From a virus: a stretch of DNA of 64,000 nt. The stretch is from UHGV virus genome UHGV-0178594; one strand, written 5' to 3'. The notes beneath the pieces were generated by a model. The model had not been told where the DNA came from. It worked only from the letters and a program-made list of their open reading frames with translations, and ran no database searches. Made by a program: the position numbers and the translations under genes. Numbering within the stretch: the stretch's first letter is position 1; every line of letters begins with the position of its first letter. Positions 29,393-59,518 of this stretch are shown in pieces.

Positions 29393-30160
29393 TTACCCCA
29401 TTCTCAGAGAGGTTTCAGTAATAATTCGTTTCGCGTCCAGCTCCCAGGCGGTGATCACGTCTGCTATAACACTAATTGCCGTTTGTGCAGCATAAATACG
29501 CTCTTCCCCAATTGGGGCTGAAACATCAGTAAAACTGATGTCTTTAGCATCCTGAATCGCGCAAATTAGCGGGACGGGTACTCGTACCAGCGGGGTTGTT
29601 GCTTCAAACTGCGTTCCTGCCATCAAGCGAAGACGTGCTCCTAGCGAGTTACACATCAGACTCATGGTCGCCTTATCCGTCGCCATTAATGTAACGTCAT
29701 ACGTCAGATTTGCCTGGGTGTATTCCAGGGCTACTAAAGGCATACCGCTGCCAGGTTCGCAGAAGTGATCACATCTTTTGCGGTCTATCTGCTGGTCATT
29801 GTTGATATAGCTGATATCCATTGAGCGCGAGATATTAATCAGAGGGAGTGCATCGCGATTAATGTTCGGATTCTCTGGCTTTCTCCCTTGCCCGGCATTA
29901 GCACGGCGAACCGCTTTAAGGAACTCGACCGCGTTATCAAAACGGGCAACATAAACACGCTCCGCTGGTGGGCGACTCAGGAATGATGCAAAGCGCCTTT
30001 CTTCTTTTGCTGGTTCCACCAGCGTTACGTCAGAAAAAATGTCACTGATTAGCGTAGCAAAAGCGTTATCCACTCTTTCCAGACCAGTTGTCTGGAATTT
30101 TCCAGTACGCGTTGTCTGCCACTCGCCAATGCGGGACAGGAGAGTTTTGTTGGGTGTCAT
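29393..30160 (-). CDS. Baseplate/tail protein (unassigned)
   Basis: 255-aa ORF. Confidence 0.3.
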   Translation of the reverse strand: MTPNKTLLSRIGEWQTTRTGKFQTTGLERVDNAFATLISDIFSDVTLVEPAKEERRFASFLSRPPAERVYVARFDNAVEFLKAVRRANAGQGRKPENPNINRDALPLINISRSMDISYINNDQQIDRKRCDHFCEPGSGMPLVALEYTQANLTYDVTLMATDKATMSLMCNSLGARLRLMAGTQFEATTPLVRVPVPLICAIQDAKDISFTDVSAPIGEERIYAAQTAISVIADVITAWELDAKRIITETSLRMG

Positions 30161-30960
30161 TCGATCACTCCGTTTTGAGTGGTATCAAAGTTCCTGGCCG
30201 GGATGCAGTAATAAAGGGAGCCGACGTGTTGTGTTCCGTAGCTGAAGATTCGATGCACGTACCACCAGCGGCGGGCGAGGCCATTCGCCATTTCTTCGTT
30301 CCATTCCAGGATTGAACCAACAGGTACGTTGTTTGCAGCAATACGCAGGATTAGCACTTCATCAGCAAGACCATCCTGTTCTCCATCGGCATCAATGGCA
30401 TGAAACGAATCCCTTCCGTCCGGGTTATCCAGGACGTATACGATTTCCGGTTCCAGATAGGTAAGCTCACGCTGGTTGTTGTCCAGTTGCGTGAAAGACT
30501 CTTCACCTGTTTCATCGTTTACGACGCCATAGGTGCCATCAGCCGGGCGGTATAAAAGCGCCTCGAACGCGTCAGGGCTTGATTCAATAATGAGCATCCA
30601 ATCGGCGCGGATCTGGTCGTTGAACGCTTTATGTCCGTTATATCGGGTTTTAAGCTGCTGGTTTGGTTCTCTGTTAGCGAGCGATGCCGGTAGGGGAGCG
30701 ATGTCAGGTTCAATCACTTCCGTAACAGAGTCACCAGCATTATCAGGCCAATTATCATGGCTATTAGATTGGGTGGCGGCGTGCTCTTCCAGAATACTGA
30801 ATGGCCCTGCACTGACATTCCCATTTTCCGTTGTGCTTCCTTCATTCGCTTCAACCGTCGTTGTCTCTTCTCTCTGCGTGCTGTCATGTTCTGTTCCCTT
30901 TCTCATCAGGCTTGCATCATCAGCAAGCCATTCATCAAAACGGCCCATAAGCGTCCTCAA
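30157..30960 (-). CDS. Tail/baseplate-operon protein (unassigned)
   Basis: 267-aa ORF, first gene of this minus-strand block. Confidence 0.3.
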   Translation of the reverse strand: MRTLMGRFDEWLADDASLMRKGTEHDSTQREETTTVEANEGSTTENGNVSAGPFSILEEHAATQSNSHDNWPDNAGDSVTEVIEPDIAPLPASLANREPNQQLKTRYNGHKAFNDQIRADWMLIIESSPDAFEALLYRPADGTYGVVNDETGEESFTQLDNNQRELTYLEPEIVYVLDNPDGRDSFHAIDADGEQDGLADEVLILRIAANNVPVGSILEWNEEMANGLARRWWYVHRIFSYGTQHVGSLYYCIPARNFDTTQNGVIE

Positions 30961-31111
30961 AGGTCGATTTATCAGGTATCGAAAGGAAGATTTTCGGGAG
31001 ATTGTGATTTTGGATGGAGGAGGGGAATTGTTATAATATGCACTTGCGCACGGTGCAACGGTGCGCTATCATTATGACATTCATTAATAATCATGGAGGA
31101 TAAAATGATCG

Positions 31112-31414
31112 ATGAACAAAAAGATTAACATAAAGAATTTCAGGGATGAGTGGCTTGATGATTTTTTTGAATTTTCAATACCACACAAAAAGATACCTTC
31201 TGATATTCAGATTACATTGTTGCGGAAGCTGGATATTATCAATGCTGCAACTACTTGGAAGGACTTGAGATCACCACCAGGTAATCGGTATGAGGAATTG
31301 TCAGGGAAGCTAAACGGCTATTCATCAATAAGGGTGAATAAGCAATACAGGTTAATTTTTAAGTGGGTTAACGGAAAGGCCGAGGACTTGTATCTCGACC
31401 CTCACAAATACTAA
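31112..31414 (+). CDS. higB: HigB-family (RelE/ParE superfamily) toxin, 'plasmid maintenance system killer'
   Basis: ..NFRDEWLDDFF..KKIP..LLRKL..LRSPPGNRYEELSGKLNGYSSIRVNKQYRLIF.. matches the remembered HigB pattern; TTGTTATAAT -10-like element upstream. Confidence 0.7.
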   Translation: MNKKINIKNFRDEWLDDFFEFSIPHKKIPSDIQITLLRKLDIINAATTWKDLRSPPGNRYEELSGKLNGYSSIRVNKQYRLIFKWVNGKAEDLYLDPHKY

Positions 31415-31485
31415 AACAAATACCCGGCGGATGGGCCGGGTACTGACCAGAGTCCACTTAATACGCACGCTAGTAAGGGCAAAAA

Positions 31486-31824
31486 ATGAAACAGGCAACC
31501 AGAAAACCGACGACTGTAGGTGATATCCTGCTGTACGAATACCTGGAGCCGTTAGAGCTTAAGATCAACGAGTTAGCAGAAATACTTCATGTTCATCGTA
31601 ACACCGTAAGTGCTCTTGTTAATAACAATCGTAAGCTAACGATGGATATGGCATATCGCCTGGCAAAAGCATTCGATACTTCTGTAGATTTTTGGATTAA
31701 TCTTCAGACCGCAGTAGACCTGTGGGAAGTCGAAAATGATATGCGCGTTCAGGAAGAGTTAAGTCGTATCAATACTGCTGAAAAATTTATTTCTCAGCGG
31801 AACCTGAATAAAAAAGCAGCCTGA
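31486..31824 (+). CDS. higA: HigA-family HTH antitoxin
   Basis: ..TVGDILLYEYLEPLELKINELAEILHVHRNTVSALVNNNRKLTMDMAYRLAKAFDTSVDFWINLQ.. typical HigA HTH. Confidence 0.7.
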   Translation: MKQATRKPTTVGDILLYEYLEPLELKINELAEILHVHRNTVSALVNNNRKLTMDMAYRLAKAFDTSVDFWINLQTAVDLWEVENDMRVQEELSRINTAEKFISQRNLNKKAA

Positions 31825-31843
31825 TATAGTTAAACACATACAA

Positions 31844-31868
31844 AAAGCCCACTTAACAAGTGGGCTTT
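31844..31868 (+). terminator. Hairpin AAAGCCCACTTAACAAGTGGGCTTT after higA (weak U-tract)
   Basis: Perfect 9-bp stem read directly; followed by CCTTTGG. Confidence 0.3.
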
Positions 31869-31880
31869 CCTTTGGAATTA

Positions 31881-32240
31881 ATGAACATTAAACCTATCCG
31901 TACAGAACAAGATTATGAGGCCGCACTGCGTGAAGTCGAACCGATGTTCGATAACGAACCGGAAATGAATACTCCGGAAGGTGATTTCTTTGAGGTTATG
32001 AGTCTTCTCATTGAGGAGTACGAGAAGAAACATTACCCAATTCAGCCACCATCACCTATTGAGGCCATTAAGTTCCGCATGGAACAGCAAGGGCTGACCG
32101 TGAAGGATCTGGAACCGGCTATTGGTAAATCAAATCGTGTTTACGAGGTGCTAAATGGGACACGAAATTTGACGTTACCTATGATTCGTCGTTTACATTC
32201 CCAGTTTGGCATTCCTCTTGAAAGCCTGGTTGGTGTTTGA
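31881..32240 (+). CDS. Orphan YgjM/HigA-type antitoxin-like protein with C-terminal HTH
   Basis: ..IGKSNRVYEVLNGTRNLTLPMIRRLHSQFGIPLESL.. resembles the C-terminal HTH of E. coli HigA (YgjM); no cognate small toxin ORF directly upstream; start set at ATG 31881. Confidence 0.5.
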   Translation: MNIKPIRTEQDYEAALREVEPMFDNEPEMNTPEGDFFEVMSLLIEEYEKKHYPIQPPSPIEAIKFRMEQQGLTVKDLEPAIGKSNRVYEVLNGTRNLTLPMIRRLHSQFGIPLESLVGV

Positions 32241-32289
32241 GTTTGGCGGTCTGGAAGACCGCCTTCACCAAAAATAAAGATAAGAAGGT

Positions 32290-33039
32290 TTGAATTTTTA
32301 TATGAGCAAAGATTCATCATTAGAAAATAAAGATGAAAATGTCACAGTCAGGAACACAATAGAAGAAGCCATAAGAGACAAGTTATTTAATAAGTTGTTT
32401 GCATATGTTGTGGTTTCTTTTTTAGTCGTTAACTGGCAGGATATTATTATATTATTTAAATCAAAGTACGATATATATACAACATTGTCTATAGTATGGG
32501 TTGGTGAGAAATATCACTTTCCTTATGTTGGCCCCATCATTGTATCTCCGTTTGTGGCTCATTTTGTTATGCCATTTATATATGGAACCACTGCGTCAGT
32601 GGTAATGCCTTATATAACAATGTATATATCAAAAGCAACAGGCAGGAACTATGCAAGAATTAGATACATTGACTATGAGTTTGATTTAGAAGAGAGGGCA
32701 AGAATAAAAGAGTTGCAGATCAACTTGAAGCAAAAAGAGAGCAAGCTTTTAAGTCTAGAAAAGCAAACAGAAGATCAATATAAATTATTGTCTGCAATTG
32801 AAGAGAAGAAGAGAGAGACTGAGAGTGCCAGAGTGGCTCTGTATCACGGCATAAAAGTAATTGTCGATGTATATAAAGCAAAAAAGAAAAGAATTTCCAC
32901 CCAAGAAGATTTTGCCGATTTATTAAAAGCAATTGAAGAAAGCGATTTTTATAAAGACACTGGATTGTGGGGTATTAATAAACTAATAGATGACGTAGAG
33001 AAAATATATGAGTCTCAATCGACAACAAAGGACAAGTAA
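32290..33039 (+). CDS. AT-rich membrane protein with N-terminal TM helices and C-terminal coiled coil
   Basis: 249 aa; hydrophobic stretches (FAYVVVSFLVVNW, IVSPFVAHFVMPFIYGTTASVVMPYI) then K/E-rich heptads; local GC visibly lower than its flanks. Confidence 0.4.
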   Translation: MNFYMSKDSSLENKDENVTVRNTIEEAIRDKLFNKLFAYVVVSFLVVNWQDIIILFKSKYDIYTTLSIVWVGEKYHFPYVGPIIVSPFVAHFVMPFIYGTTASVVMPYITMYISKATGRNYARIRYIDYEFDLEERARIKELQINLKQKESKLLSLEKQTEDQYKLLSAIEEKKRETESARVALYHGIKVIVDVYKAKKKRISTQEDFADLLKAIEESDFYKDTGLWGINKLIDDVEKIYESQSTTKDK

Positions 33040-33072
33040 TATAAAAGGCGGGATAACCGCCTTTGTTGTAAA

Positions 33073-34269
33073 TTAAGAACCTTTCTTCACATACTCCATA
33101 AACATTTTTTCAGCTTGCTCAGGTGACGTTCCTGTCATGACCAGCGCATCAATGAACGCTTGCTTCTTCAGTGCGAATTGATCGGCAAGGCGTTGCTGAA
33201 GCTCCTTGTTTTTCTGTTTCTCACGTTGCAAGGCTGCTTCTTTTGCTGCTGCCCGTTTTTTCTGTGCATCGGACAACTTTCTGGCCCTGGTCAGCTGGTC
33301 ACGTAGCTTGTCAATCTTGCCGTTGTCCTTTGCCAGTTTTGTGCTTAAAGCGGCCTGGCGTTTCTGATAGAGCTTCCATTCACGTTTAGCTGCCTCAACA
33401 TTCGTTTTGCTGCTACGGTTTCGATTGAACGCCTTCTCGTCTTCTTTTGTGAAGTGTTTTGTCGTGCGGCGGCGATCGTCACCAAAGGCAACTTGCGTTG
33501 CAGCTTTTTGCAGGGCGCGAGCAATACTCATCTGCCAACTGGCAGACTGTAGTCGTGTCATTGAGTGGATCACATGTTTACAGGCGACGCCTTGCAGCTT
33601 AGGGTTGCGAACTTTTGGATAGGCGTATTCTTTTGGCGGGGCCAGGGCAAAGTTACCTGCAGTGGCGATGTAGCGATACCAGTATTGATGGCGACCGCAG
33701 TCACAATCGAAAGACACTCGCCCGGCACACAGTGATTTTGTGACTTTCAGGGCTGATTTATCGTCTTCTGCGATGTCATCGACCATCTGATCCCATTCTT
33801 CAAAACGTACCCGGACAATGTGGTGCTGGTGAACGGATATATCGGACGCTTCCACGCGGATATTAATCACATTGTGACGAAGAGATACGGGCGTAGCTCT
33901 TTTGATACCAGAACCGTCGTCTACGGCGTTATTTGCTCGCTTAATATCGATAGCCTGGCTGGACGCTACCAGTTGTGCGTATGTAATGCCAGCCGTCTTG
34001 CTGTCGTATTTTTCGCGAGCTTTGCTTCGCAGCTTTTCGAAGCCTTTCAGATCGTCACGCGTAAAGAACGTGCCGCCTTTCTTTTTCCCCAGCTTAAGAA
34101 TGTCTTCGGCTGATTTATTCCTAAGCCTGCCCGGCGTGAGTGTCCTGTTCGCCTGGCGGCGTTTGCGGTTTTGCTCTTTCCTGATGAGTTCAAATACGCG
34201 TGTGAAATCCTTAGAGGACAGGCCGTCAGTGATATATCGCCCGTCCTGATTTTTCAGGAAGTCAGGCAT
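33073..34269 (-). CDS. SWIM zinc-finger protein with basic coiled-coil C-terminus
   Basis: CxC..CxH signature ..FDCDCGRHQYW..GVACKHVIH..; K/R/Q-rich C-terminal third. Confidence 0.45.
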   Translation of the reverse strand: MPDFLKNQDGRYITDGLSSKDFTRVFELIRKEQNRKRRQANRTLTPGRLRNKSAEDILKLGKKKGGTFFTRDDLKGFEKLRSKAREKYDSKTAGITYAQLVASSQAIDIKRANNAVDDGSGIKRATPVSLRHNVINIRVEASDISVHQHHIVRVRFEEWDQMVDDIAEDDKSALKVTKSLCAGRVSFDCDCGRHQYWYRYIATAGNFALAPPKEYAYPKVRNPKLQGVACKHVIHSMTRLQSASWQMSIARALQKAATQVAFGDDRRRTTKHFTKEDEKAFNRNRSSKTNVEAAKREWKLYQKRQAALSTKLAKDNGKIDKLRDQLTRARKLSDAQKKRAAAKEAALQREKQKNKELQQRLADQFALKKQAFIDALVMTGTSPEQAEKMFMEYVKKGS

Positions 34270-34591
34270 TTTCTATCTCCGGTGCCGAGCCAGCGTAATC
34301 GCGAATCTTGTTTCTTAGCCATGCTGCGTCAGGAAGAGTTAACGTTGTCCCTACCGGCATTTCTTCCATTTCTGACTCATGGCCCACCAGCACGCGAAAT
34401 ACCCAGCGCAAATCAGCGTTGCCATAGGCGCGATAGGCCGCCAGGTCTGAGCGATAAACCTCATCAATTTTTATCGTGTACTGGAAATTATCGGAGTGAT
34501 ACTCCGATACCCGCTTGATCATCTCCTGATGGAATAGTGCGCGCAGCACATCGTCTTCAATGCATCGATCGTCGAGCCTGCTGTAACTCAT
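34262..34591 (-). CDS. Hypothetical protein
   Basis: 109-aa ORF overlapping the SWIM gene start. Confidence 0.3.
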   Translation of the reverse strand: MSYSRLDDRCIEDDVLRALFHQEMIKRVSEYHSDNFQYTIKIDEVYRSDLAAYRAYGNADLRWVFRVLVGHESEMEEMPVGTTLTLPDAAWLRNKIRDYAGSAPEIENA

Positions 34592-34787
34592 AACAGTTCC
34601 TCACAGTCATAACCTGGGGGGAACTGTATGCAGGGTGTGAAATGCGAGAAACAGACAGGCCACCAGTTCAGGGGGATGTGGTTCATAAATCCCCTCACTG
34701 GTGACAAGTGACTTTCATTAATCTTTATGCGGGGGCCAGCTTCATTGTTTGCTGGCTGTAGATTAAAAATTAAATAGTGTGAATGAC

Positions 34788-34922
34788 ATGGACGTTATTC
34801 TCGAATTGTTAAAGCTAATTGTTCTGTTTATGAACGCCTCGTTGACCACGCAAATACTGGCGTTAGTATTTTTGTTACTCTTCTACCTGGTATTAAGGGA
34901 GTTAACAAAGCTACTGAGTTGA
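34788..34922 (+). CDS. Small hydrophobic peptide (44 aa) MDVILELLKLIVLFMNASLTTQILALVFLLLFYLVLRELTKLLS
   Basis: ATG at 34788 to TGA 34920-34922, hand-translated; below the ORF-track size cutoff; weak RBS. Confidence 0.2.
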   Translation: MDVILELLKLIVLFMNASLTTQILALVFLLLFYLVLRELTKLLS

Positions 34923-35847: not shown

Positions 35848-36465
35848 GATGGTTTTGTGAAGTTAAGGGTTTTGGGAGCAGTGCTCGCGGTTATATTGGG
35901 GGGAGTTTCTCTTAATGCTGCCTATGCAGGCGCATTACCTGCAAAGTATGAGGCTGGGCTGAAGGTGTTGCGAAACGCCAAAACAAACTATACGCCTGAT
36001 GAAGTTTCAAACTATTGCCAAAAAGAAAATATCCCACTGAAACCTGTAGAGCCATTCTTTAAAAGCAACATTGAGTTCTGTGTATTTGCGTATGCAGCAG
36101 ATGAAACAGGAAAGGCCATACAAAAGACAGGGTATTCCACCAAAGACACAATGTCGGTGTTAAGTAACGGCGTGTTGCAGTTTGAGCTTTATCGTCAGCA
36201 AGGAATGGGAGATCTATTGCAGCCTTTGTATGGTCTAGCATTGGTGCCGGAAGGTCAGCAGTTTCTGATCAAAAAAGGCCTCATGAGGCAGGAAGATGTA
36301 GCTGGTTTCGATGCCATCGTTGCCTATGAAAAACAACTCAAGGAACAGCGCAATAAAAAACCATCTGCCTCATGCGTGCAAAGCAAAACAGCAGAATACA
36401 GCGCAGTGGCTGGGCCTTTAGCCCCACAAATGGCAGAGCAATGGTGTAAACAATACGGGCAATAA
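35848..36465 (+). CDS. Secreted/periplasmic protein with signal peptide
   Basis: From ATG 35848: MKDGFVKLRVLGAVLAVILGGVSLNAAYAG; the ORF track gives a longer 35701 start. Confidence 0.4.
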   Translation, partial: DGFVKLRVLGAVLAVILGGVSLNAAYAGALPAKYEAGLKVLRNAKTNYTPDEVSNYCQKENIPLKPVEPFFKSNIEFCVFAYAADETGKAIQKTGYSTKDTMSVLSNGVLQFELYRQQGMGDLLQPLYGLALVPEGQQFLIKKGLMRQEDVAGFDAIVAYEKQLKEQRNKKPSASCVQSKTAEYSAVAGPLAPQMAEQWCKQYGQ

Positions 36466-36485
36466 GTTACGCAGCGGAGGCAGAA

Positions 36486-36878
36486 TTGAAAAGATTAGCT
36501 ATTGCTTTATTGGCAGCTTTCCCTTTGATCGCTCACGCCGGGAATTTACAAGTGAAGTGCGGTAGGTTTGATATAAAAATCTATCCGAACGCCATATTTC
36601 TGAATGGGAATAAGGTCGATAACGCGCACCGGAAAACTGAATCTGACGTAATGAGCTATGTGTTCCAGGAGTATGCCGAGATGGGGGGAACTTACACGTT
36701 GTACTCGCTGGATGTTCCTTCTCGCGGTGATATGACGTTATCTCATCAATGGCAGAACGCCGATGGCGAAGCTCTGCGCGAGGTTAAAACAGAAAAATGT
36801 GGCACTTTCCATTCTTTTAAAGGGAAAGCGCCCAATGTTAAATCTACGCTTGAAAAACAGCGTGCTGGTGAGCTTTAA
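36486..36878 (+). CDS. Secreted/periplasmic protein with signal peptide
   Basis: MKRLAIALLAAFPLIAHAGN.. classic Sec signal with AHA cleavage site. Confidence 0.45.
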   Translation: MKRLAIALLAAFPLIAHAGNLQVKCGRFDIKIYPNAIFLNGNKVDNAHRKTESDVMSYVFQEYAEMGGTYTLYSLDVPSRGDMTLSHQWQNADGEALREVKTEKCGTFHSFKGKAPNVKSTLEKQRAGEL

Positions 36879-47623: not shown

Positions 47624-48308
47624 TTACCAGGCACTGCGTGAGGCGGCAGTGAAAGCAACGTGGGGAGACTGGGACTCATATAAACCACACCGTGGCGCAC
47701 GTGGTTATGAGGTCCGACTAAGTAGTCAGGCCATTGCGCAACACGTTCTGAAAAACAACGCTGAATTTATTGCTGCCTTTAATCCCAAGGTTGCTTTGGC
47801 ACTACTGGATGAGATCAACGCATTAGAGGAAACGCGTATCAACGATGTTTGCCGTATTGTGGAACTAACAAAACAACTGGAGTCGGCAAAATCAAAACTC
47901 AACGAGCAGCGCGAGCATTACGAGGGAGTAATCGCGGATGGAGGTAAGCGCATAGCAGAACTGGAAAAACAATGCGCTGAATCGGAGCGAAAAGCATTAA
48001 GCAACTTTGAAGAGTGTGCTGCGATGGCTGAACGTATCGAAGAGTTGGAGCAGGCCAACACAAGACAGGACGCCAATATAAACCACCAGCAGGAGGGCGT
48101 GACTCAATCAGTCACCCGATACATATATCACTACAACGCAGTGAATGGTTCTGACTCTATGTCTGGAATTGCGCGGTTAACTTTCATGATCAAATCACAA
48201 TCTGACCTTGACGCACTTAAAAGCGCACTTAGCAAGGTTGGTGGTTTCCGTGCAAAAGCAATTACATCTCTTTCATATCTTGGGTGTGAGGAAGATAGCA
48301 AACGATGA
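47610..48308 (+). CDS. Modular coiled-coil protein, family member 5
   Basis: N-terminus [12 protein letters not shown]; ..[27 protein letters not shown].. nearly identical to a segment in 41475-42197. Confidence 0.4.
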   Translation: MSEINYQALREAAVKATWGDWDSYKPHRGARGYEVRLSSQAIAQHVLKNNAEFIAAFNPKVALALLDEINALEETRINDVCRIVELTKQLESAKSKLNEQREHYEGVIADGGKRIAELEKQCAESERKALSNFEECAAMAERIEELEQANTRQDANINHQQEGVTQSVTRYIYHYNAVNGSDSMSGIARLTFMIKSQSDLDALKSALSKVGGFRAKAITSLSYLGCEEDSKR

Positions 48309-48838
48309 AAGAAGGATTTAAAGATAATTCAGGTGCAGCGCAAAACACTGGAGAAATCATTGAGGCATTTAATGGGGAGGAAATGCCCACTTTATTCAGA
48401 AAAGAATATCCGCGAAAGAGTAGAGCACTAGAATTGCTGTTTATCATTCTGTTTTTCGTGTTGCTGATACCAATAGCCTCAATATTAGTGACTGTTCTAA
48501 TGGGGAAAGTATTTGAACCGTTAGTTGAACTGTATATCGATATAGTGTGGACCCCATTCAGGAAGCTACACAATAAAATTAACCCACATAAGGAAACAGA
48601 TATGGCAACTTTGAAAAAAGAAGATCGTTTTACCAAAAAACAAATCGCCGAGGCAAAAATCCTCGATAACAACGGAACCTACTTCATCAACGGTTCCATT
48701 CTTCCTGTTTATATCAATGAAGATGGAGACACTTACCTTATTGAAGAGTACGAAAAAGGCGAGCCGAGCGAACACCTCATTAAAGATTTGTTCGCGGATG
48801 GCGTTATTGTTGCTGTTAATCCGATTGGCTACAACTAA
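48305..48838 (+). CDS. AT-rich membrane protein
   Basis: 177 aa; TM stretch ALELLFIILFFVLLIPIASILVTVLMG. Confidence 0.3.
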   Translation: MKEGFKDNSGAAQNTGEIIEAFNGEEMPTLFRKEYPRKSRALELLFIILFFVLLIPIASILVTVLMGKVFEPLVELYIDIVWTPFRKLHNKINPHKETDMATLKKEDRFTKKQIAEAKILDNNGTYFINGSILPVYINEDGDTYLIEEYEKGEPSEHLIKDLFADGVIVAVNPIGYN

Positions 48839-48848
48839 AGCATAAATT

Positions 48849-49361
48849 ATGACCAGTATTACCAGAGAACAGGCCAAGAAAATTATTGAAGCTGCCGATG
48901 AGGTTATTAGTGCGCTTGCCGGAACTAACGAGGATGTTCACCCTGGTAGCGATAACATGCTACGTCTGTGGGATGACCTGAATGACCGTTACGCGCCGCC
49001 GGAAGTTGTGCGTGAGCTGGCGCGTATCGTGCTGGCATCGCTGGAAGCGGAGCCTGTAGCGTGGCGATATCGCTACGTGAAAAAAGGCGTTACGGACTCT
49101 CAGGGGGAGCCGTGGGTTGGTGACTGGAAATATGTACCGACAAAAGAGGATTGCAACGACAGGCCGAGCTATGAGATTCAGGCCTTATTCACTGCCCCGC
49201 CAGTCCCGGTGACATCAGAAGGACTGGTTAAAGCCGTGCGTTTCTATGAACAAGTTAAGCGTGAAAATCCGCCAGTCGAAACCGGAGCATGGAAAGACGC
49301 GATTGACTGGGTGCTCAAAGAGGCCTGCCAGGTTGTAAACACTGGCATCAAAGGAGACTGA
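48849..49361 (+). CDS. Hypothetical protein (shares ASLEAEPVA / APPVPVT segments with 49569)
   Basis: 170-aa ORF. Confidence 0.35.
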   Translation: MTSITREQAKKIIEAADEVISALAGTNEDVHPGSDNMLRLWDDLNDRYAPPEVVRELARIVLASLEAEPVAWRYRYVKKGVTDSQGEPWVGDWKYVPTKEDCNDRPSYEIQALFTAPPVPVTSEGLVKAVRFYEQVKRENPPVETGAWKDAIDWVLKEACQVVNTGIKGD

Positions 49362-49362
49362 T

Positions 49363-49572
49363 ATGGCTATTGCCGCAAGTTACACCATGCATCTCTATTG
49401 TGATTGCCTCCAGTGTACAGATGGCAAATATAAGTCGCCAGACTTCGGTGAGTATATCGGTACGTCATGGGCTGGCTGTGCAAAAGAGGCGCGCAAAGAT
49501 GGCTGGCGAATAAGCAAAGACAAAACGCGTGCTTTTGCGCCCGGGCATAAAGTTTTGAGGATTAACAAATGA
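49363..49572 (+). CDS. Small Cys-rich protein
   Basis: 69 aa; ..YCDCLQCTDGKYKSPDFG.. Confidence 0.3.
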   Translation: MAIAASYTMHLYCDCLQCTDGKYKSPDFGEYIGTSWAGCAKEARKDGWRISKDKTRAFAPGHKVLRINK

Positions 49573-50633
49573 CCACTTTAACCGACAAAGAACTGATTAA
49601 AGAAATCAAAGAGCGAATCGGCAGCCTGGACGTGCGAGACAATATTGAGCGCCGTGCTTATGAAATTGCTCTGGCATCGCTGGAGGCAGAGCCAGTGGCA
49701 AAAATTATAGCTCACTACCCATTAGGAATTGACGTAGGCAAACAAAAGTTCGTACAGGCCATTGGAGAGCTTCCTGACTTTGGAGGATATCTATTCGCCG
49801 CTCCACCTGTGCCGGTAACACAGGCTAATGTCGCGCAAGCAATTGAAAATCTTAAGCAGAAGTTAGTGGAATGCAATCGCTATAACTACTGCGCAGATGC
49901 AGTTAAAGATGTTGAGGATGCCAGCCGCGTCTTGGCACTCCAAAATCAAAATATGTCAGCACCGATAACGCAGGAGGCCATTGAAAACGCAATTGAATAT
50001 ATCCGCAGTATTGCTTTTCACATCGATGAAGACGATTACCACGGCAAGCATATTGCGTATTTCATGCGACAAGCACTGGTCTGGCTGGAAGGGCATTCAT
50101 GCAGCGACGACAGACAGGATAAAGCCGAGAATCAACCAGTACGCGGTAACCAGGCTGCCGAATCCAATCGCGGTAATGAGTGGACCGGCAATCCTGATAT
50201 TGATAACGCCATCATCATGCTTGACCGCATAGATACGGCGGAAAGTTACGATGATGACCGTATTGAGGCTGTTAAGGCTGTTTTGCGTAGACTGGCAGGC
50301 AACTCTCCGGTAATTCCGGATGGTTTATCCACGGTATGCGCTGAGGCTTATCAGGTTGTAGGAGTTATGGCAGATGCGCTTGGTGTATTCGGTGATGCAG
50401 CAGTACAGAAAGTTCTGGATAACCTGTCACAGCAAAAACTTGTTCACAGAGATGTGCTGCCGTTCTCGCTTCCGGTAACTCCGGATGGTTGGGTTATGGT
50501 TCCTAAACAGGTAACGCCGGAAATCAGCAACGCGATAAACGTTGTGGGTCAACGCTGTACATGCGGAAATTGCTCTCAGCGGTTGTGGGATTTATTACTC
50601 GACGCCACACAGCAAGGAGTTAACCGTGGCTAA
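49569..50633 (+). CDS. Hypothetical protein
   Basis: 354-aa ORF. Confidence 0.35.
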   Translation: MTTLTDKELIKEIKERIGSLDVRDNIERRAYEIALASLEAEPVAKIIAHYPLGIDVGKQKFVQAIGELPDFGGYLFAAPPVPVTQANVAQAIENLKQKLVECNRYNYCADAVKDVEDASRVLALQNQNMSAPITQEAIENAIEYIRSIAFHIDEDDYHGKHIAYFMRQALVWLEGHSCSDDRQDKAENQPVRGNQAAESNRGNEWTGNPDIDNAIIMLDRIDTAESYDDDRIEAVKAVLRRLAGNSPVIPDGLSTVCAEAYQVVGVMADALGVFGDAAVQKVLDNLSQQKLVHRDVLPFSLPVTPDGWVMVPKQVTPEISNAINVVGQRCTCGNCSQRLWDLLLDATQQGVNRG

Positions 50634-50809
50634 CCTGCAACTTATCCTCAAAGGTGAAAAGATTTGAGGATTCGCATCATTAATAACACCGACAAGCATC
50701 CGGATGATTATTTGGATTGCTCGTTAGCAGAGCGCGTGGAATTGATATAAGAGAATCTCCGCGCATCGGCAACACACAGCTAAATATGTTCGCAATAAAG
50801 GGTAAATCA

Positions 50810-51211
50810 ATGGCTAAATTTCGGAGAACTATTATTTTTCTGGCAATGTTATCTGCCTGCCATTTATCACATGCATCGGTTATTGTTGCAACCGCCGCAA
50901 CAACGGCAGCAATTAGCGCCTCAGCCGCAAGCGAGCAGGAGCAACGCACTGCAATCAATGCATCCGCAAATACTACCACTGTAGCAGTCACGCAAGATAA
51001 GCCAAATATAGGCTTTGTTACTTGCGGAAAACGGTATGGAGAGACGGTCGGTTCTCTTGGTTGCGCAGTGTGGCATGACGAACGAGCAGAAATTCCGTGG
51101 AAATCATGGCCTGGTTACATTCTTGGCGAAAAGATACCCACCAGCTATGAAGTAAATGCTATTTCGTTCGACCAATATAACAGAGTCGCAACGGTCTACT
51201 TTTCTTATTAA
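50810..51211 (+). CDS. Lipoprotein candidate
   Basis: From ATG 50810: MAKFRRTIIFLAMLSAC.. (lipobox-like LSAC). Confidence 0.35.
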   Translation: MAKFRRTIIFLAMLSACHLSHASVIVATAATTAAISASAASEQEQRTAINASANTTTVAVTQDKPNIGFVTCGKRYGETVGSLGCAVWHDERAEIPWKSWPGYILGEKIPTSYEVNAISFDQYNRVATVYFSY

Positions 51212-51217
51212 CACGGA

Positions 51218-51517
51218 GTGATTATGTGGCGCGGTAATAATCATGGCAGAAGCCATATGATACTTACCGAATATAAGCTAGACCACAAAACCAATAAATC
51301 ACGCTCAGTATATTTGCTCCGGCACAATAGCCGCGTAAGGAATACCGTGCTGGAGCAATATCTGACCGTTGAAATGGATAATTTCGGGAATTTCAAGCCA
51401 ACAATATCGCTTGATGATTTCCCTCGTGGTTTAAGCGAAAGAGAAGCAATGCTGAAATTAGCAGAATGGCTACAAAGATTGAGCATTGTTATTGAAGATA
51501 ACTGGAGTCAACCATAA
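51218..51517 (+). CDS. Hypothetical protein
   Basis: 99-aa ORF. Confidence 0.3.
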   Translation: MIMWRGNNHGRSHMILTEYKLDHKTNKSRSVYLLRHNSRVRNTVLEQYLTVEMDNFGNFKPTISLDDFPRGLSEREAMLKLAEWLQRLSIVIEDNWSQP

Positions 51518-51693
51518 TGAAAAACAGAAAGAAATTTTGGATTACTTTTTTGTTTGTATGCCTTTGCGGTTCATTTGTTTTGTTGGCTGGTGGTGTTGAA
51601 TGGGGAACGATGGGATGTGGAGTTGGGAGTGGCTTTACGCTTCTTGCAGCCTGGGTTATCGCTGGCGTTCAGTCTGGAGGAGGGTATTACTAA
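51517..51693 (+). CDS. Small membrane protein (58 aa)
   Basis: TAATG overlap with the previous gene; MKNRKKFWITFLFVCLCGSFVLLAGG.. hand-translated. Confidence 0.25.
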   Translation: MKNRKKFWITFLFVCLCGSFVLLAGGVEWGTMGCGVGSGFTLLAAWVIAGVQSGGGYY

Positions 51694-51713
51694 GTAATTT
51701 TATTACCCCCTTC

Positions 51714-51765
51714 ATAACGGATATCACTCTCGTGATAACGGATATTCCAATTTTGATAACGGATA
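51714..51765. promoter_or_regulatory. Three direct repeats ATAACGGATA spaced 21 bp upstream of the 51773 gene
   Basis: Copies at 51714, 51735, 51756. Confidence 0.45.
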
Positions 51766-51772
51766 AAGCCAA

Positions 51773-51982
51773 ATGAGGCATTTTTTAAGGCTGGCATTTG
51801 TTCTGGCGCTATTTGCTCCTCCGGCTGCGATGGCTGGAGAACAGCAGCACTGTGTAACTGAATCAGAGAATCTTGTAATAGTCACTCAATGCGATGACGG
51901 AACGGTGACCGTGGTTAATGTACGAGATAACCGTGTAGCCGTGTGTCGTAAAGGCGAATCATGCAAGGAGATAAAGCTATGA
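51773..51982 (+). CDS. Small secreted Cys-containing protein
   Basis: Signal-peptide-like MRHFLRLAFVLALFAPPAAMA. Confidence 0.3.
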   Translation: MRHFLRLAFVLALFAPPAAMAGEQQHCVTESENLVIVTQCDDGTVTVVNVRDNRVAVCRKGESCKEIKL

Positions 51983-52743
51983 CCAAAATCACTAAAGAGC
52001 GTATATCAGAGATTATTTCCCGTATCGAAATGTATGGTCACGGTGCTGGATATACGGCAGATGAAGTATTGGCGCTTGCCAAAATAGCGTTAGCGCCTTG
52101 CAAGGATGGTAACGGAATGACACTGATTGACTTTTTAGTGAAGGAATTATCTAAGGGAGCTGGATGGCCTGATGGAAAAGATTTTTGCTATCTACCCATT
52201 CCGCTGGCAGGTTGTAGTTGGGCTACGGTTCGTTTTGATACGCGCCATAAAAATTACCAATCATCAAAGAATTATTCCTTTGATGGCATTATTTGCGATA
52301 TCAGTGACCTTGATCGCAGTGCGTTTACATCGGTTGTCACTCGTGAACAATATGAAGCAGCTCGCATAGCGTCTCAGAAAGTCGAGTTCAATGGTGATGA
52401 ACTTGAAAGTAAGGCTTACAAGTTAGATTTTGAGCAATGGCTGGAACAGCAACGCGGGAAAATCGATGTGGACTGCGGTTGTGTGTCTGCGGAAACATTC
52501 ATGCACTGGTTGCGGGTAGCTTATGAGGCTGGCAACCATCCGGATTTTCCGGATAGTTCCCAACAATCGCCCAAGAAAAGCGTAAAAACCTCTCTGGAAA
52601 GAGGCTATCTTGAGGCCGCATTAAAGATTAAGCCGGGCCATACGCTAGGCGTCATTGATGCCATGTTGGTTCATGAAATGGCTAAGGCTTTATTGCCACT
52701 GGTAGCAGATCAACATGAGGCGAGTCATGCCAACGAAAGCTGA
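51961..52743 (+). CDS. Hypothetical protein
   Basis: 260-aa ORF. Confidence 0.3.
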   Translation: MQGDKAMTKITKERISEIISRIEMYGHGAGYTADEVLALAKIALAPCKDGNGMTLIDFLVKELSKGAGWPDGKDFCYLPIPLAGCSWATVRFDTRHKNYQSSKNYSFDGIICDISDLDRSAFTSVVTREQYEAARIASQKVEFNGDELESKAYKLDFEQWLEQQRGKIDVDCGCVSAETFMHWLRVAYEAGNHPDFPDSSQQSPKKSVKTSLERGYLEAALKIKPGHTLGVIDAMLVHEMAKALLPLVADQHEASHANES

Positions 52744-53011
52744 ACTACAGACGCGTGTAGAGGAACTTGAAAAAGAGAACACTGGCCTCAAAAAAATGCT
52801 GGCACGGGCAGAAAGGGAGTTATCTGGCAAACTTCTGCCAGAAGAACTGCCACCAGCAGATATACCAAAGCGAGTGTCTCGGTGGATGAAGTCTTTTTGT
52901 TTGCCGTGGGAGGCGTTTTGGTGCTACGACCATCGCAGATGGTGTGATGAACTTGATAGCAGTTTTCCCTACTTTGCGGAAGGTAACACCTGCCCTCAAT
53001 GCAGGGGATAG
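52715..53011 (+). CDS. Hypothetical protein with coiled coil and Cys-rich C-terminus
   Basis: 98-aa ORF. Confidence 0.3.
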   Translation: MRRVMPTKAELQTRVEELEKENTGLKKMLARAERELSGKLLPEELPPADIPKRVSRWMKSFCLPWEAFWCYDHRRWCDELDSSFPYFAEGNTCPQCRG

Positions 53012-53346
53012 CATTTAACGAAATCGATCACCCTATCCTGAACTTCGGAAAGAAGGTATTTTTCACGAGCCAGGACGTCAGGATATTGACGTTCTGGCCT
53101 TACCAGATGCCGGAGCTTCCCATTAAGCAGAATGGCCTCAGAAAACACTTTTACGCTGTGCTTTATCCCCTCTGTTTCACTTTTCAGCGTCAAAATAAAG
53201 CGCAATTGCTTGTTAGCCTGATTCAGATTCAATACCCGAATTTGCAGTTCGTCTATGCTATTTCGCAATGGGATTGATGCCACCACACTGGTGCAGTCTC
53301 TGATTGTCTGAATTGAACGGCTAACATTGAGAACGTTATTGTGCAT
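52996..53346 (-). CDS. Paralog of the lxr-position protein, encoded on the opposite strand
   Basis: 116 aa; shares ..RS.QTIR..T.VV.S.P.. pattern and length with 53654-54004. Confidence 0.3.
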   Translation of the reverse strand: MHNNVLNVSRSIQTIRDCTSVVASIPLRNSIDELQIRVLNLNQANKQLRFILTLKSETEGIKHSVKVFSEAILLNGKLRHLVRPERQYPDVLAREKYLLSEVQDRVIDFVKCYPLH

Positions 53347-53378
53347 GTGCCTGATCCACTAACTCCGGGAGGTTTCTT

Positions 53379-53651
53379 GTGTCAGATCGAAATATAGCAG
53401 CTAAAAGCAAGGAAGAGCGAGACAAGGTGAACGTAGACCTTGCCGCCAGCGGCGTTGCTTACAAAGAACGGCTGAATATACCTGTGATTGCAGAGCAGGT
53501 GGCCCGTGAGCAACCGGAAAACCTGCGCGCCTATTTCATGGAACGGCTACGGCACTACCGGCTGTTAAGCCTCCAGTTGCCAAAAGGGAGCGATCCGGTG
53601 TATCAGAACGAGGATGCGAAAAAAAATAACGGCAAGATGGGGGAGACTTAA
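53379..53651 (+). CDS. hot: DNA polymerase III theta-subunit homologue
   Basis: ..[43 protein letters not shown].. closely matches remembered E. coli HolE. Confidence 0.8.
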
Positions 53652-53653
53652 AC

Positions 53654-54004
53654 ATGCTTAACTATCACGACAACACGCGTTCTATGCAGACAATCCGCAC
53701 CAATACAGCGGTGGTCGATAGCTTTCCTGTACATACTCAAGGCCGTGAAGATACCGTGGAAGTGCGACGCATGTTGTGTCGCCGGTCACCGGGCCACCAG
53801 CACTTCATCGTAACGTTTAAAAGCGATGTAGAGCGCGCCGAGAAAATCTCTAACTCCACATCTCTGGTTAAGCCGTTAGCGGAGGTTATTGTGCGCAACA
53901 ATAAGGCGCGCTTTGTCCTTGAGGAGCATCATTCTGATTTTAATGAAAAAATCGAGTCAAGCATTTTGCAATATATGAATGGCACGTTCACGCCACCAAT
54001 GTGA
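53654..54004 (+). CDS. Hypothetical protein at the position of P1 lxr (between hot and humD)
   Basis: 116-aa ORF; assignment by position only. Confidence 0.35.
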   Translation: MLNYHDNTRSMQTIRTNTAVVDSFPVHTQGREDTVEVRRMLCRRSPGHQHFIVTFKSDVERAEKISNSTSLVKPLAEVIVRNNKARFVLEEHHSDFNEKIESSILQYMNGTFTPPM

Positions 54005-54067
54005 TTAGCCCCCAGCGTGGCGCGCGTACAAACCCCGCTTTCACAAACTATGCCTTTTCAATGTATA

Positions 54068-54083
54068 CTGTATGAATAAACAG
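54068..54083. promoter_or_regulatory. LexA box CTGTATGAATAAACAG upstream of humD
   Basis: Exact CTGT-N8-ACAG SOS-box architecture 21 bp upstream of the humD ATG. Confidence 0.6.
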
Positions 54084-54103
54084 TATTATTGAGGTAAAAC
54101 GCT

Positions 54104-58037: not shown

Positions 58038-58094
58038 AGTACCCTCCGCAATAGGCGAGGGTACTTTACATTAAAATGCACTGTCTAAAAAGAT

Positions 58095-58117
58095 TGTTAG
58101 AAAATTAATTTATGAAT
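58095..58117. promoter_or_regulatory. Operator-like element TGTTAGAAAATTAATTTATGAAT overlapping the dre stop codon
   Basis: 19 of 23 positions identical, in one run, to the element at 39196. Confidence 0.4.
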
Positions 58118-59138: not shown

Positions 59139-59290
59139 GAAACTATTAAACCTCTATATACAGATAACGCTACGTGAAAAATAGAAAACTGACAGGGTAG
59201 TTATAAGTTAATTTTCAAAATTCAAGCCTTTGATTCGAGGCATGATTTTTCATCCTTGTCAATACTGCCAGTTTACTGGAGATTATAGCC

Positions 59291-59506: not shown

Positions 59507-59518
59507 CGAGTAGGAATA

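What the first reader, a model, noticed from the sequence alone, without database searches (positions are those of the whole stretch)
31112..33039. higBA followed by an orphan HTH antitoxin-like gene and an AT-rich membrane/coiled-coil protein: candidate toxin-antitoxin or abortive-infection module
After a canonical higB-higA pair and a hairpin, a second YgjM-type antitoxin-like gene (31881-32240) has no small RelE/HigB-like toxin upstream. It is followed on the same strand by a 249-aa protein with N-terminal TM helices and a long charged coiled coil, in a visibly AT-rich segment. An HTH antitoxin-like regulator paired with a membrane effector is a common layout of defence/abortive-infection modules. 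I do not recognise this membrane protein.
Basis: partly seen in the sequence, partly recalled or inferred. Interest (0 to 1): 0.65.

Follow-up and report, generated by a model that had tools for sequence, protein, structure and literature searches.

The report
Swapped toxin-antitoxin cassette plus unknown membrane protein
In a D6-like phage-plasmid of E. coli, the "orphan" regulator is the leftover antidote of an older HigB/HigA addiction pair whose poison gene was replaced by a different higBA pair, and the membrane protein beside it is a separate, highly variable gene of an unstudied phage and plasmid family that repeatedly sits just downstream of toxin-antitoxin or umuDC operons.

Summary
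The four genes are real. They form an accessory island on the opposite strand between tail genes 7 and 25 of a D6-like (P1-related) phage-plasmid.

- **Genes 1 and 2:** an intact GraT/YbaQ-type higBA pair.
- **The "orphan" HTH (31881-32240):** a K-12-type (YgjM) HigA. In sibling elements a PF09907 HigB toxin sits 3 nt upstream of it. Here that toxin and its promoter were replaced by segment 31011-31880.
- **HTH plus membrane protein as an antitoxin/toxin pair:** not supported. Two independent natural HigA2 knock-outs (a frameshift and a deletion of the HTH domain) keep an intact membrane gene. Homologues occur without any HTH. HigA2 stays at least 95% identical in every full-length copy while the membrane protein ranges from 35% to 99%.
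- **The membrane protein (probable start 32302, 245 aa):** two TM segments and a roughly 110-residue helix. It belongs to an uncharacterised family of 86 clusters that matches only unknown-function PHROGs and no Pfam, NCBIfam, PADLOC or PDB entry.
- **Unexpected pattern:** in 6 of 10 distinct contexts the gene directly upstream is a type II TA operon (four families), and in 2 of 10 it is umuDC.

Function is untested. My best guess is a membrane protein for exclusion or abortive infection, transcribed by read-through from a repressed, stress-inducible operon.

The parts
31011..31880 (+). Variant-A cassette (own promoter, higB1, hairpin, higA1, hairpin). It replaces the promoter plus PF09907 higB2 found in sibling elements.
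   Evidence: Against L009 (NZ_LR890273), homology stops at 31010 and resumes exactly at 31881, the ATG of higA2. The cassette is found in 91 PLSDB plasmids. The alternative higB2 segment is found in 25, of which 21 cover at least 80% of it.
31029..31066 (+). Candidate higBA1 promoter and operator: an extended -10 (TG at 31029-31030, TATAAT at 31032-31037) followed by the palindrome GCGCACGGT/ACGGTGCGC (31046-31066).
   Evidence: The -10 is read directly from the sequence. The inverted repeat is 89% complementary. The consensus scan did not call it because there is no -35. This part is inferred, not shown.
31112..31414 (+). higB1, a RelE-fold toxin of the GraT/HigB type (100 aa).
   Evidence: PF05015 E 1.2e-34; phrog_3066 'toxin of TA system'; 6f8s_B E 7e-14.
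31421..31443 (+). Hairpin between higB1 and higA1, with no T-tract.
   Evidence: -16.3 kcal/mol.
31486..31824 (+). higA1, the cognate HigA antitoxin (112 aa), very close to E. coli K-12 YbaQ.
   Evidence: TIGR02607 102.5 bits against a cut-off of 47.7; PF01381; 2eby_A E 1e-53.
31844..31868 (.). Perfect 11-bp hairpin after higA1. The T-run is better on the - strand.
   Evidence: -15.5 kcal/mol.
31881..32240 (+). higA2, an orphan K-12/YgjM-type HigA antitoxin (119 aa). It is intact here and has lost its toxin, promoter and operators.
   Evidence: 5ifg_B E 1.4e-7 over residues 6-112. PADLOC PD-Lambda-2_B positions 1-119 of 402, E 2.5e-43. Thousands of roughly 119-aa HigA homologues exist. It is preceded by HigB2 in all 14 variant-B loci. 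dN/dS is 0.04-0.13 among variant-A copies, apart from one near-identical pair.
32245..32263 (+). Hairpin between higA2 and the membrane gene, with no T-tract. It is probably not an efficient terminator.
   Evidence: -14.4 kcal/mol. It is conserved with higA2 in variants A and B.
32302..33039 (+). 'Mem': a 245-aa protein with an N-terminal helix, TM1, a short periplasmic helix and beta-hairpin, TM2 continuing into a roughly 110-residue helix, and a small C-terminal helical domain. It belongs to an uncharacterised phage and plasmid family.
   Evidence: phrog_8191 E 1e-114, unknown function. No trusted Pfam, NCBIfam or PADLOC match. Hydropathy. AF2 pLDDT 86.6. 86 clusters at 50% identity. GC 33%.
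33044..33064 (.). Bidirectional terminator between Mem and the convergent tail gene 25. It is the only hairpin of the island with a T-rich tail on the + strand.

Best explanation
The region is an accessory island that runs antisense inside the late tail operon of a D6-like phage-plasmid, between the homologues of P1 genes 25 and 7. It holds three things of separate origin.

1. A complete higB1-higA1 addiction module.

2. higA2, the antitoxin left over from the ancestral K-12-type higB2-higA2 module. Its promoter, operators and toxin gene were replaced by module 1. The leftover antidote is still intact here. It may persist because it neutralises the HigB2 released when a sibling phage-plasmid is displaced (anti-addiction), or simply because it has not yet decayed. 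It has decayed in at least two other lineages.

3. An independent gene for a two-TM inner-membrane protein with a long cytoplasmic coiled coil. HigA2 neither neutralises it nor is needed alongside it.

The membrane gene has no recognisable promoter of its own. It is probably transcribed by read-through from the TA promoter to the terminator at 33044-33064. That would make it expressed in the plasmid-prophage state and de-repressed when the antitoxin falls. Its most likely job is superinfection exclusion or abortive infection at the membrane.

Shown: gene identities, the cassette swap, the independence of Mem from HigA2, the hypervariability of Mem, and the recurrent TA or umuDC neighbour upstream.

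Inferred: the operon structure, the timing of expression, the anti-addiction role and the exclusion/Abi function.
For: - **Context:** 91% identity to phage D6 and 99.9% to two E. coli plasmids over the finding region. In P1, genes 25 and 7 are 3 nt apart in the LP26 late operon.
- **Swap boundaries:** 31010 and 31881 against L009. L009 HigB2 matches K-12 HigB (5ifg_A) and HigA2 matches K-12 HigA (5ifg_B). The higB2 promoter carries two TCCCA-N3-TGGGA palindromes that are absent from the window.
- **HigB2 absent:** none in the window or in the twin plasmid.
- **Population counts:** 91 variant-A plasmids against 25 with the variant-B segment, 21 of them covering at least 80% of it.
- **Selection on HigA2:** dN/dS 0.04-0.13 in most variant-A pairs against 0-0.013 in variant B.
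- **Natural HigA2 knock-outs with Mem intact:** the L033 frameshift, and a 66-aa stump in L036, L039-44, L046 and L050. All 14 variant-B loci keep the full 119 aa.
- **Identity ranges:** Mem 35-99% identical, while HigA2 is 95-98% in full-length copies and gp25 is 94-99.7% within the E. coli/Salmonella D6-like lineage. Divergence is deepest in the C-terminal half of Mem, which falls to 20% identity.
- **Mem without an HTH neighbour:** after umuDC (L002, L051), tacAT (L021-23) and relBE (L054, hmmsearch E 2e-47), and in a lambdoid prophage (L020).
- **Transcription unit:** only the hairpin after Mem has a T-rich tail on the + strand.
- **Family:** it matches phage protein families (PHROGs), and every one of them has unknown function.
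Against: - No expression, toxicity or phage-challenge data exist.
- The exclusion/Abi role rests only on context, topology and allelic diversity. Coiled coils diverge quickly even without an arms race.
- dN/dS in the Mem C-terminal half is mostly 0.2-0.35. Only one pair (L006/L015) reaches about 1.1.
- The strong purifying signal on orphan HigA2 could come from recombination with variant-B alleles rather than from selection in the orphan state.
- The promoter and operator of higBA1 are read by eye, and no promoter scan supports them.
- The repeated TA-Mem adjacency at deep divergence (54%/54%/28% identity) could mean a real functional link with TA modules that my 'independent gene' wording understates.
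Confidence: 0.7

Rival explanations
1. HigA2 (HTH) and Mem form a two-gene module in which the HTH protein is the antitoxin or dedicated repressor of a toxic membrane effector (a TA or Abi pair).
For: The two genes are on the same strand, 61 nt apart, and adjacent in all D6-like elements examined. The layout of an HTH followed by a membrane protein is common in defence modules (general knowledge).
Against: - Ten loci have HigA2 frameshifted or lacking its HTH domain yet keep an intact Mem.
- Mem homologues occur without any HTH neighbour.
- HigA2 has a bona fide cognate toxin, HigB2, in siblings.
- There is no co-variation: HigA2 is at least 95% identical in full-length copies against 35-99% for Mem.
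- The HigA2 operator motif is absent upstream of Mem. The only near match is one 1-mismatch hit inside higA2, which is not above chance.
Confidence: 0.05
2. Mem is a functional third component of type II TA systems, in the manner of PD-lambda-2C or the chaperone of TAC systems. Examples would be a membrane effector or sensor that works with the toxin-antitoxin pair in phage defence, or a protein whose level must be tied to antitoxin stability. On this view the window carries a rewired three-component system, higBA1 plus Mem.
For: - Six of 10 distinct contexts have a type II TA operon directly upstream on the same strand. In five of those six the gap is 53-92 nt (380 nt after tacAT). The operons belong to four TA families: PF09907 HigBA in three diverged versions, PF05015 HigBA, TacAT and RelB-RelE/ParE.
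- The trio is kept at 54%/54%/28% identity in a different phage-plasmid backbone and at a different insertion site.
- The trio moved as one 1.7-kb block into K. pneumoniae IncF plasmids.
Against: - The partner TA family changes freely, so a specific protein-protein interaction is unlikely.
- Two contexts have umuDC instead, and two have unrelated genes.
- In most K. pneumoniae plasmids Mem is split by IS903B while higBA2 stays intact.
- TA modules and other cargo often cluster in the same hotspots for reasons unrelated to joint function.
Confidence: 0.2
3. Mem is a lytic-cycle or morphogenesis protein of the phage, such as a holin, antiholin or spanin-like lysis regulator, or a membrane anchor for tail assembly. 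This would explain its fixed position beside tail gene 25.
For: - It is always next to the gene-25 homologue in D6-like elements, even in the K. grimontii remnant.
- One of 42 family members weakly hits an Rz-like spanin PHROG (E 8e-5) and one hits a hol-like PHROG.
- It is a small two-TM protein.
Against: - It is transcribed antisense to the late operon and in the same direction as plasmid-maintenance TA genes.
- It is absent from P1, where genes 25 and 7 abut.
- Homologues sit on non-phage IncF plasmids.
- 20% C-terminal identity between alleles on backbones that are about 95% identical is not what a core assembly factor shows.
Confidence: 0.07

Closest known systems
E. coli K-12 HigB-HigA (YgjN-YgjM; PDB 5IFG), a type II TA with the toxin gene first
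   Same: HigA2 aligns with YgjM over nearly its whole length, and the sibling elements' HigB2 aligns with YgjN. In siblings the toxin stop codon lies 3 nt before the antitoxin ATG, and two palindromic operators flank the promoter.
   Different: In the window the toxin, promoter and operators are gone. Only the antitoxin gene remains, downstream of another TA pair.
GraTA / HigBA of the PF05015-TIGR02607 type (PDB 6F8S), and the E. coli K-12 chromosomal HigA-like protein YbaQ (2EBY)
   Same: higB1 and higA1 match these at E 7e-14 and E 1e-53. The order is toxin first, and a palindrome lies next to the -10.
   Different: Nothing notable. This is an ordinary member, already annotated in phage D6 as an addiction module (PMC6799933).
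PD-lambda-2 defence system (Vassallo et al. 2022, PMC9519451)
   Same: The N-terminal HigA-like Xre domain of PD-lambda-2B matches HigA2 at E 2.5e-43. That system is also a HigB-like protein, a HigA-like protein and a third gene.
   Different: [quoted passage not shown] HigA2 stops at residue 119 and covers only profile positions 1-119 of 402. The third gene here is an unrelated membrane protein.
Orphan antitoxins acting as anti-addiction modules (e.g. chromosomal ccd of Erwinia chrysanthemi against F-plasmid ccd; from my own knowledge, not checked here)
   Same: An antidote without its poison, kept on a replicon that competes with replicons carrying the matching poison. Variant B coexists with variant A in the same species.
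   Different: Here the antidote sits on the invading mobile element itself, beside a new addiction module. Neutralisation has not been tested.
Caulobacter higBA with the downstream, functionally independent membrane protein HigX (PMC13384398)
   Same: A foreign higBA inserted upstream of an unrelated membrane-protein gene. The downstream protein acts independently of HigBA.
   Different: HigX is a 4-TM LytTR transcription factor that is ancestral in alpha-proteobacteria. Mem has two TM segments, a coiled coil and no DNA-binding domain, and it is itself mobile cargo.
Prophage superinfection-exclusion and Abi membrane proteins (T4 Imm, lambda RexB, P22 SieA/SieB; from my own knowledge)
   Same: Small inner-membrane proteins encoded by lysogeny-expressed genes that are transcribed against the flow of lytic genes. 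They are often AT-rich and polymorphic.
   Different: There is no sequence or fold similarity to any annotated exclusion or defence family in PHROGs, PADLOC or Pfam. There is no functional evidence.

Membership tests
HigBA type II TA, PF05015 toxin with TIGR02607 antitoxin (genes 31112-31824) | The toxin matches the HigB-like RelE-fold profile above its threshold. | tested here: met
   PF05015, 119 bits against a cut-off of 27.
HigBA type II TA, PF05015 toxin with TIGR02607 antitoxin (genes 31112-31824) | The antitoxin matches the HigA equivalog profile, and the toxin gene lies upstream of the antitoxin gene. | tested here: met
   TIGR02607, 102.5 bits against a cut-off of 47.7. Gene order.
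HigBA type II TA, PF05015 toxin with TIGR02607 antitoxin (genes 31112-31824) | The toxin arrests growth and the antitoxin neutralises it. | not testable with these tools
   Needs expression experiments.
K-12-type HigBA (PF09907 HigB with a YgjM-like HigA), for the HTH protein 31881-32240 | The antitoxin is homologous to YgjM over its full length, with a C-terminal HTH. | tested here: met
   5ifg_B E 1.4e-7, residues 6-112. PF01381 at residues 70-122.
K-12-type HigBA (PF09907 HigB with a YgjM-like HigA), for the HTH protein 31881-32240 | A PF09907 HigB toxin gene lies immediately upstream in the same operon. | tested here: not met
   No HigB2-like sequence in the window or in the complete twin plasmid. 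It is present in all 14 variant-B sibling loci.
K-12-type HigBA (PF09907 HigB with a YgjM-like HigA), for the HTH protein 31881-32240 | Palindromic operators in its own promoter, for autoregulation. | tested here: not met
   L009 has two TCCCA-N3-TGGGA sites. The window has no exact copy, and its 1-mismatch hits are at chance level.
PD-lambda-2 defence system | Component B is a HigA-like HTH fused to a C-terminal peptidase domain. | tested here: not met
   Only profile positions 1-119 of 402 are matched, and the protein ends at residue 119. Definition from PMC9519451.
PD-lambda-2 defence system | Component C is related to a P4 phage antitoxin. | tested here: not met
   The third gene here is the membrane protein, which has no PADLOC hit.
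   HigA2 is frameshifted in L033 and cut to 66 aa in nine L036-type loci, with Mem intact in all. Homologues occur without an HTH neighbour.
   Needs expression experiments.
Known anti-phage defence or superinfection-exclusion protein families | Sequence or fold match of Mem to a described family. | tested here: not met
   - PADLOC: none for the window protein, and only coiled-coil noise for family members.
- Pfam: only DUF6947 at 17.6 bits, below its cut-off of 27.
- NCBIfam: none.
- PHROGs: all of unknown function.
- PDB sequence profile: nothing credible.
- BFVD: no hit at E <= 0.001.
Tetrameric two-TM cation channels (NaK/MthK/KcsA-like) | The fold TM1, pore helix, loop, TM2, with significant structural similarity. 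| tested here: inconclusive
   These channels dominate the Foldseek PDB list, but at E > 3 and TM-scores of 0.1-0.26. No selectivity-filter motif was examined. Treat this as a lead only.
Orphan antitoxin kept as an anti-addiction factor | An intact reading frame under purifying selection in the absence of the toxin. | tested here: inconclusive
   It is intact in the window and in 13 other variant-A loci, with dN/dS of 0.04-0.13. Two independent inactivations also exist, and recombination with variant B could explain the low dN/dS.
Orphan antitoxin kept as an anti-addiction factor | It neutralises the HigB2 of competing elements. | not testable with these tools
   Needs co-expression and plasmid-displacement assays.

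The most novel reading that the evidence does not exclude
The Mem family is a new kind of membrane effector that mobile elements deliberately wire to the 3' end of tightly repressed, stress-derepressed two-gene operons (type II TA operons of any family, or LexA-controlled umuDC). Antitoxin loss or SOS induction during phage attack or plasmid loss would then switch on a pore-forming or exclusion protein. On this reading TA promoters act as sensors for a separate, hypervariable membrane effector.
Probability: 0.18. Interest if true: 0.7.

Novelty: new variant of a known kind. Interest (0 to 1): 0.42.

Why it matters
Three points.

1. It gives a concrete example of how addiction modules are exchanged on phage-plasmids. 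A new higBA replaced only the poison and promoter of the old one, and the old antidote stayed. That asymmetry would let the new variant displace the old one without post-segregational killing. It is a testable explanation for why variant A outnumbers the variant-B segment 91 to 25 in plasmid records.

2. It removes a false lead. The HTH and the membrane protein are not a toxin-antitoxin pair.

3. It flags an uncharacterised membrane-protein family that matches at least five PHROGs and forms 86 clusters at 50% identity. The family is carried by phage-plasmids, prophages and IncF plasmids of Enterobacterales, including widespread K. pneumoniae plasmids. It is extremely polymorphic and repeatedly sits just downstream of TA or umuDC operons. 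If that coupling is functional, it would tie TA regulation to a membrane effector.

Tried and rejected
- **Family searches for Mem.** Pfam, NCBIfam, PADLOC, PHROGs and a PDB sequence profile gave nothing usable.
- **Wider locus searches.** The genome-contig scan with the Mem alignment found no locus. Alignments A3 and A4 were too diverse for the search for related loci. Four of the six single-protein scans of viral contigs found nothing.
- **Literature.** The D6 genome paper (Gilcrease & Casjens 2018) is not held. Searches for protein accessions and the PHROG id returned no paper.
- **HigA2 as regulator of Mem through its operator.** Rejected: no TCCCA-N3-TGGGA site lies upstream of Mem.
- **A conserved regulatory or recombination motif upstream of Mem across contexts.** None was found. 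Each TA cassette brings its own, unrelated hairpin.
- **The K. pneumoniae IncF trio as independent evidence of linkage.** Downgraded: the block still carries 51 bp of tail gene 7, so it is a fragment of a D6-like element.
- **L053 (H63).** This was a spurious tblastn hit with no ORF matching the family profile.
- **A P1-type late promoter upstream of gene 7.** No convincing match was seen by eye, and I did not pursue it.
Full report
**What is there**

The window belongs to a D6-like, P1-related phage-plasmid of E. coli. Region 30900-33200 is 91% identical to phage D6 over its first 1.6 kb. It is 99.9% identical over its full length to plasmids NZ_CP085065 and NZ_CP104667.

The four + strand ORFs of the finding are real. 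They lie between the homologues of P1 tail genes 7 (30157-30960) and 25 (33073-34269), which are on the - strand. D6 annotates them as a RelE toxin, two HigA antitoxins and a hypothetical protein.

In P1 itself, genes 25 and 7 are 3 nt apart inside the late operon driven by LP26. The island is therefore an insertion that runs antisense within a late tail operon.

The island is AT-rich. The membrane gene has 33% GC, against 48% for the window and 50% for the flanking tail genes.

**The first pair**

higB1 (PF05015, E 1.2e-34) and higA1 (TIGR02607, 102.5 bits) form an ordinary toxin-first HigBA pair of the GraTA type. higB1 matches 6f8s_B, and higA1 matches E. coli YbaQ at E 1e-53.

Reading the sequence directly, an extended -10 (TGTTATAAT, 31029-31037) is followed by the palindrome GCGCACGGT/ACGGTGCGC. 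This looks like a TA promoter and operator, but that is inference.

**The "orphan" HTH**

The 119-aa protein aligns with E. coli K-12 HigA (YgjM, 5ifg_B) over residues 6-112. It has thousands of roughly 119-aa homologues, and several sources name some of them HigA. Its PADLOC hit covers only the N-terminal Xre domain of PD-lambda-2B, positions 1-119 of 402. PD-lambda-2B carries a C-terminal peptidase that is absent here.

The decisive result comes from sibling elements:
- In L006, L009, L012-L015, L030-L032, L034 and L035, a 100-aa PF09907 HigB sits directly upstream of the same HTH gene. Its stop codon lies 3 nt before the HTH start codon.
- That HigB matches K-12 HigB, 5ifg_A.
- Against L009, homology with the window ends at 31010 and resumes exactly at the ATG at 31881. 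The backbone of L009 is otherwise nearly identical to the window: gp7 99.6%, gp25 99.7%, Mem 98.8%.

Segment 31011-31880 (promoter, higB1, higA1 and two hairpins) therefore replaces the promoter and higB2.

The higB2 promoter carries two TCCCA-N3-TGGGA palindromes. The window has no exact copy, and its four 1-mismatch hits are at chance level.

No HigB2-like sequence exists in the window or in the complete twin plasmid.

The HTH protein is thus HigA2, a true orphan in this genome, and its orphan status comes from a cassette swap.

In PLSDB, the variant-A cassette occurs in 91 plasmids. The variant-B segment occurs in 25, of which 21 cover at least 80% of it.

**Is HigA2 tied to the membrane protein?**

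No, for four reasons:
- L033 has a +1 frameshift at about codon 58 of higA2 and an intact 245-aa Mem.
- In L036, L039-44, L046 and L050, homology stops at window 32062. A 66-aa stump without the HTH remains, followed by an intact 242-aa Mem allele.
- All 14 variant-B loci keep the full 119 aa.
- HigA2 is 95-98% identical in every full-length copy, whereas Mem is 35-99% identical.

A protein-protein antitoxin relationship is therefore not tenable.

Among the intact orphan copies, dN/dS is 0.04-0.13, apart from one near-identical pair. With HigB2 present it is 0-0.013. The orphan copies are relaxed but still constrained.

Together with the two independent decays, this fits either a slowly eroding remnant or an anti-addiction role against HigB2 of competing sibling elements. 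I cannot separate these two readings, because recombination between the variants blurs the signal. For example, the window's higA2 is about 7% diverged from L009's, while the Mem-to-gene-25 stretch beyond it has only a handful of differences.

**The membrane protein**

The probable start is ATG 32302 (245 aa), not TTG 32290.

Hydropathy shows two hydrophobic stretches, at about residues 31-52 and 75-108.

An AF2 model built from 42 diverse sequences (pLDDT 86.6) gives:
- an N-terminal helix at 8-28;
- TM1 at 31-53;
- a short helix and a beta-hairpin at 58-79;
- TM2 running on as a single helix to residue 193;
- a small helical C-terminal domain.

It matches phrog_8191 (unknown function) and nothing trusted in Pfam, NCBIfam, PADLOC or the PDB.

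A profile search of 1.84 billion representatives finds 86 clusters at E of at most 0.001, mostly 200-290 aa and aligned end to end. The conserved core is the N-terminal membrane region: N44 and P91 are invariant, and W45, S54, G95 and P103 are nearly so. All 42 members tested hit only PHROGs of unknown function.

Within D6-like elements the alleles are ancient. dS is saturated in most comparisons between allele classes, and the C-terminal half falls to 20% identity while the flanks stay about 95% identical.

**An unexpected pattern**

I found ten distinct genomic contexts for family members.

In six, the gene directly upstream on the same strand is a type II TA operon:
- PF09907 HigBA in D6-like variant B.
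- HigBA1 plus HigA2 in variant A.
- A diverged HigBA in Enterobacter-type D6-like elements and in K. pneumoniae IncF plasmids.
- Another HigBA in a different phage-plasmid backbone and insertion site, L052. It is 54%/54%/28% identical to the L016 trio.
- TacAT at that same site, L021-23.
- RelB-RelE/ParE beside repA on a conjugative IncF plasmid, L054. Here Mem membership has E 2e-47.

In two more contexts the upstream operon is umuDC-like: L002 and L051, where UmuC is 59% and Mem 27% identical between the two.

The last two have unrelated neighbours, L020 and L024.

The gaps are 53-92 nt in seven of the eight TA or umuDC contexts (380 nt after tacAT), and no conserved motif lies upstream of Mem.

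In the window, only the hairpin after Mem has a T-rich tail on the + strand.

My reading, which is inferred, is that Mem rides on read-through from tightly repressed, stress-derepressed operons.

Two caveats apply:
- The K. pneumoniae block is a fragment of a D6-like element, because it still carries 51 bp of gene 7.
- In most Klebsiella plasmids Mem is split by IS903B while higBA2 stays intact.

A published analogue is Caulobacter higBA inserted upstream of the functionally independent membrane protein HigX (PMC13384398).

**Verdict**

The interpretation as an HTH/membrane TA or Abi pair is not supported. The HTH is a stranded HigA2 antitoxin.

The membrane protein is an independent, hypervariable member of an uncharacterised family borne by mobile elements. 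Its function is unknown. Exclusion or abortive infection is the best-fitting guess from orientation, topology, AT-richness and polymorphism, and nothing here tests it.

The TA cassette swap is a modest new variant of known biology. The recurrent coupling of TA or umuDC operons to Mem is the part worth following up.

Noticed in passing
window 30157-34591, compared with L027 (P1 NC_005856 76119-78455): In P1, genes 26-25-7-24-6-5 form one late operon (LP26) with 25 and 7 only 3 nt apart. In D6-like elements the 2.1-kb island is inserted between 25 and 7 on the opposite strand. Two of its hairpins (31842-31870 and 33044-33064) have good T-runs on the - strand, where they would face late transcription heading for gene 7. 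How genes 7-24-6-5 are expressed is unclear.
   Followed up: partly
L033 4832-5311 (IMGVR_UViG_2563366977_000001): An extra 159-aa ORF lies between Mem and tail gene 25 in this relative. It has no Pfam or PADLOC match. This shows that the right side of the island also accepts cargo.
   Followed up: partly
window 47941-54484: This stretch does not align with the near-identical twin plasmid NZ_CP085065, which carries a type I R-M system (hsdR/S/M) in the corresponding interval. The window instead has Ead/Ea22-like and DUF4014 proteins, four ORFs with no family match, and an S24 peptidase (HumD/UmuD-like) at 54104-54493. This is a second cargo hotspot.
   Followed up: partly
L005 8472-9043; L010/L011 6819-7354: Several D6-like relatives carry another small higBA pair (93 aa each) on the - strand between the gene-26 and mat homologues. 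The window has only a 47-aa ORF there, at 34779-34922.
   Followed up: no
L017 6001-7798 (K. pneumoniae NZ_CP137420) and about ten similar plasmids: In many large K. pneumoniae IncFIB/IncHI1B plasmids the Mem homologue is interrupted by IS903B after residue 139, while the upstream higB-higA stays intact.
   Followed up: partly
L002 1937-3098 (K. grimontii chromosome CP067380): A degraded D6-like remnant sits in a chromosome. An IS3-family element abuts the conserved sequence that marks the left edge of the island (matching window 30982-31026). It is followed by umuDC, Mem and the gene 25/26 homologues, and a Cap4-nuclease gene lies further upstream.
   Followed up: partly
window 31486-31824: HigA1 is almost the same protein as the E. 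coli K-12 chromosomal 'orphan' regulator YbaQ (2eby_A, E 1e-53 over 108 residues). This hints that ybaQ is itself a stranded HigA.
   Followed up: no
window 1-64000: ARAGORN finds no tRNA gene in the 64-kb window, although a D6-like plasmid prophage (pYU39_89) is reported to carry four tRNA genes (PMC6799933). They may lie in the part of the element outside the window.
   Followed up: no
L028 and L029 (NZ_CP085065), at record positions 57859-59700 and 36130-36705: The twin plasmid also carries a TnpB gene directly followed by a HicA toxin gene and a HicB-sized ORF. It carries a 'MW1434 family type I TA toxin' annotation and phd/doc as well, which makes several addiction systems on one element.
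   Followed up: no
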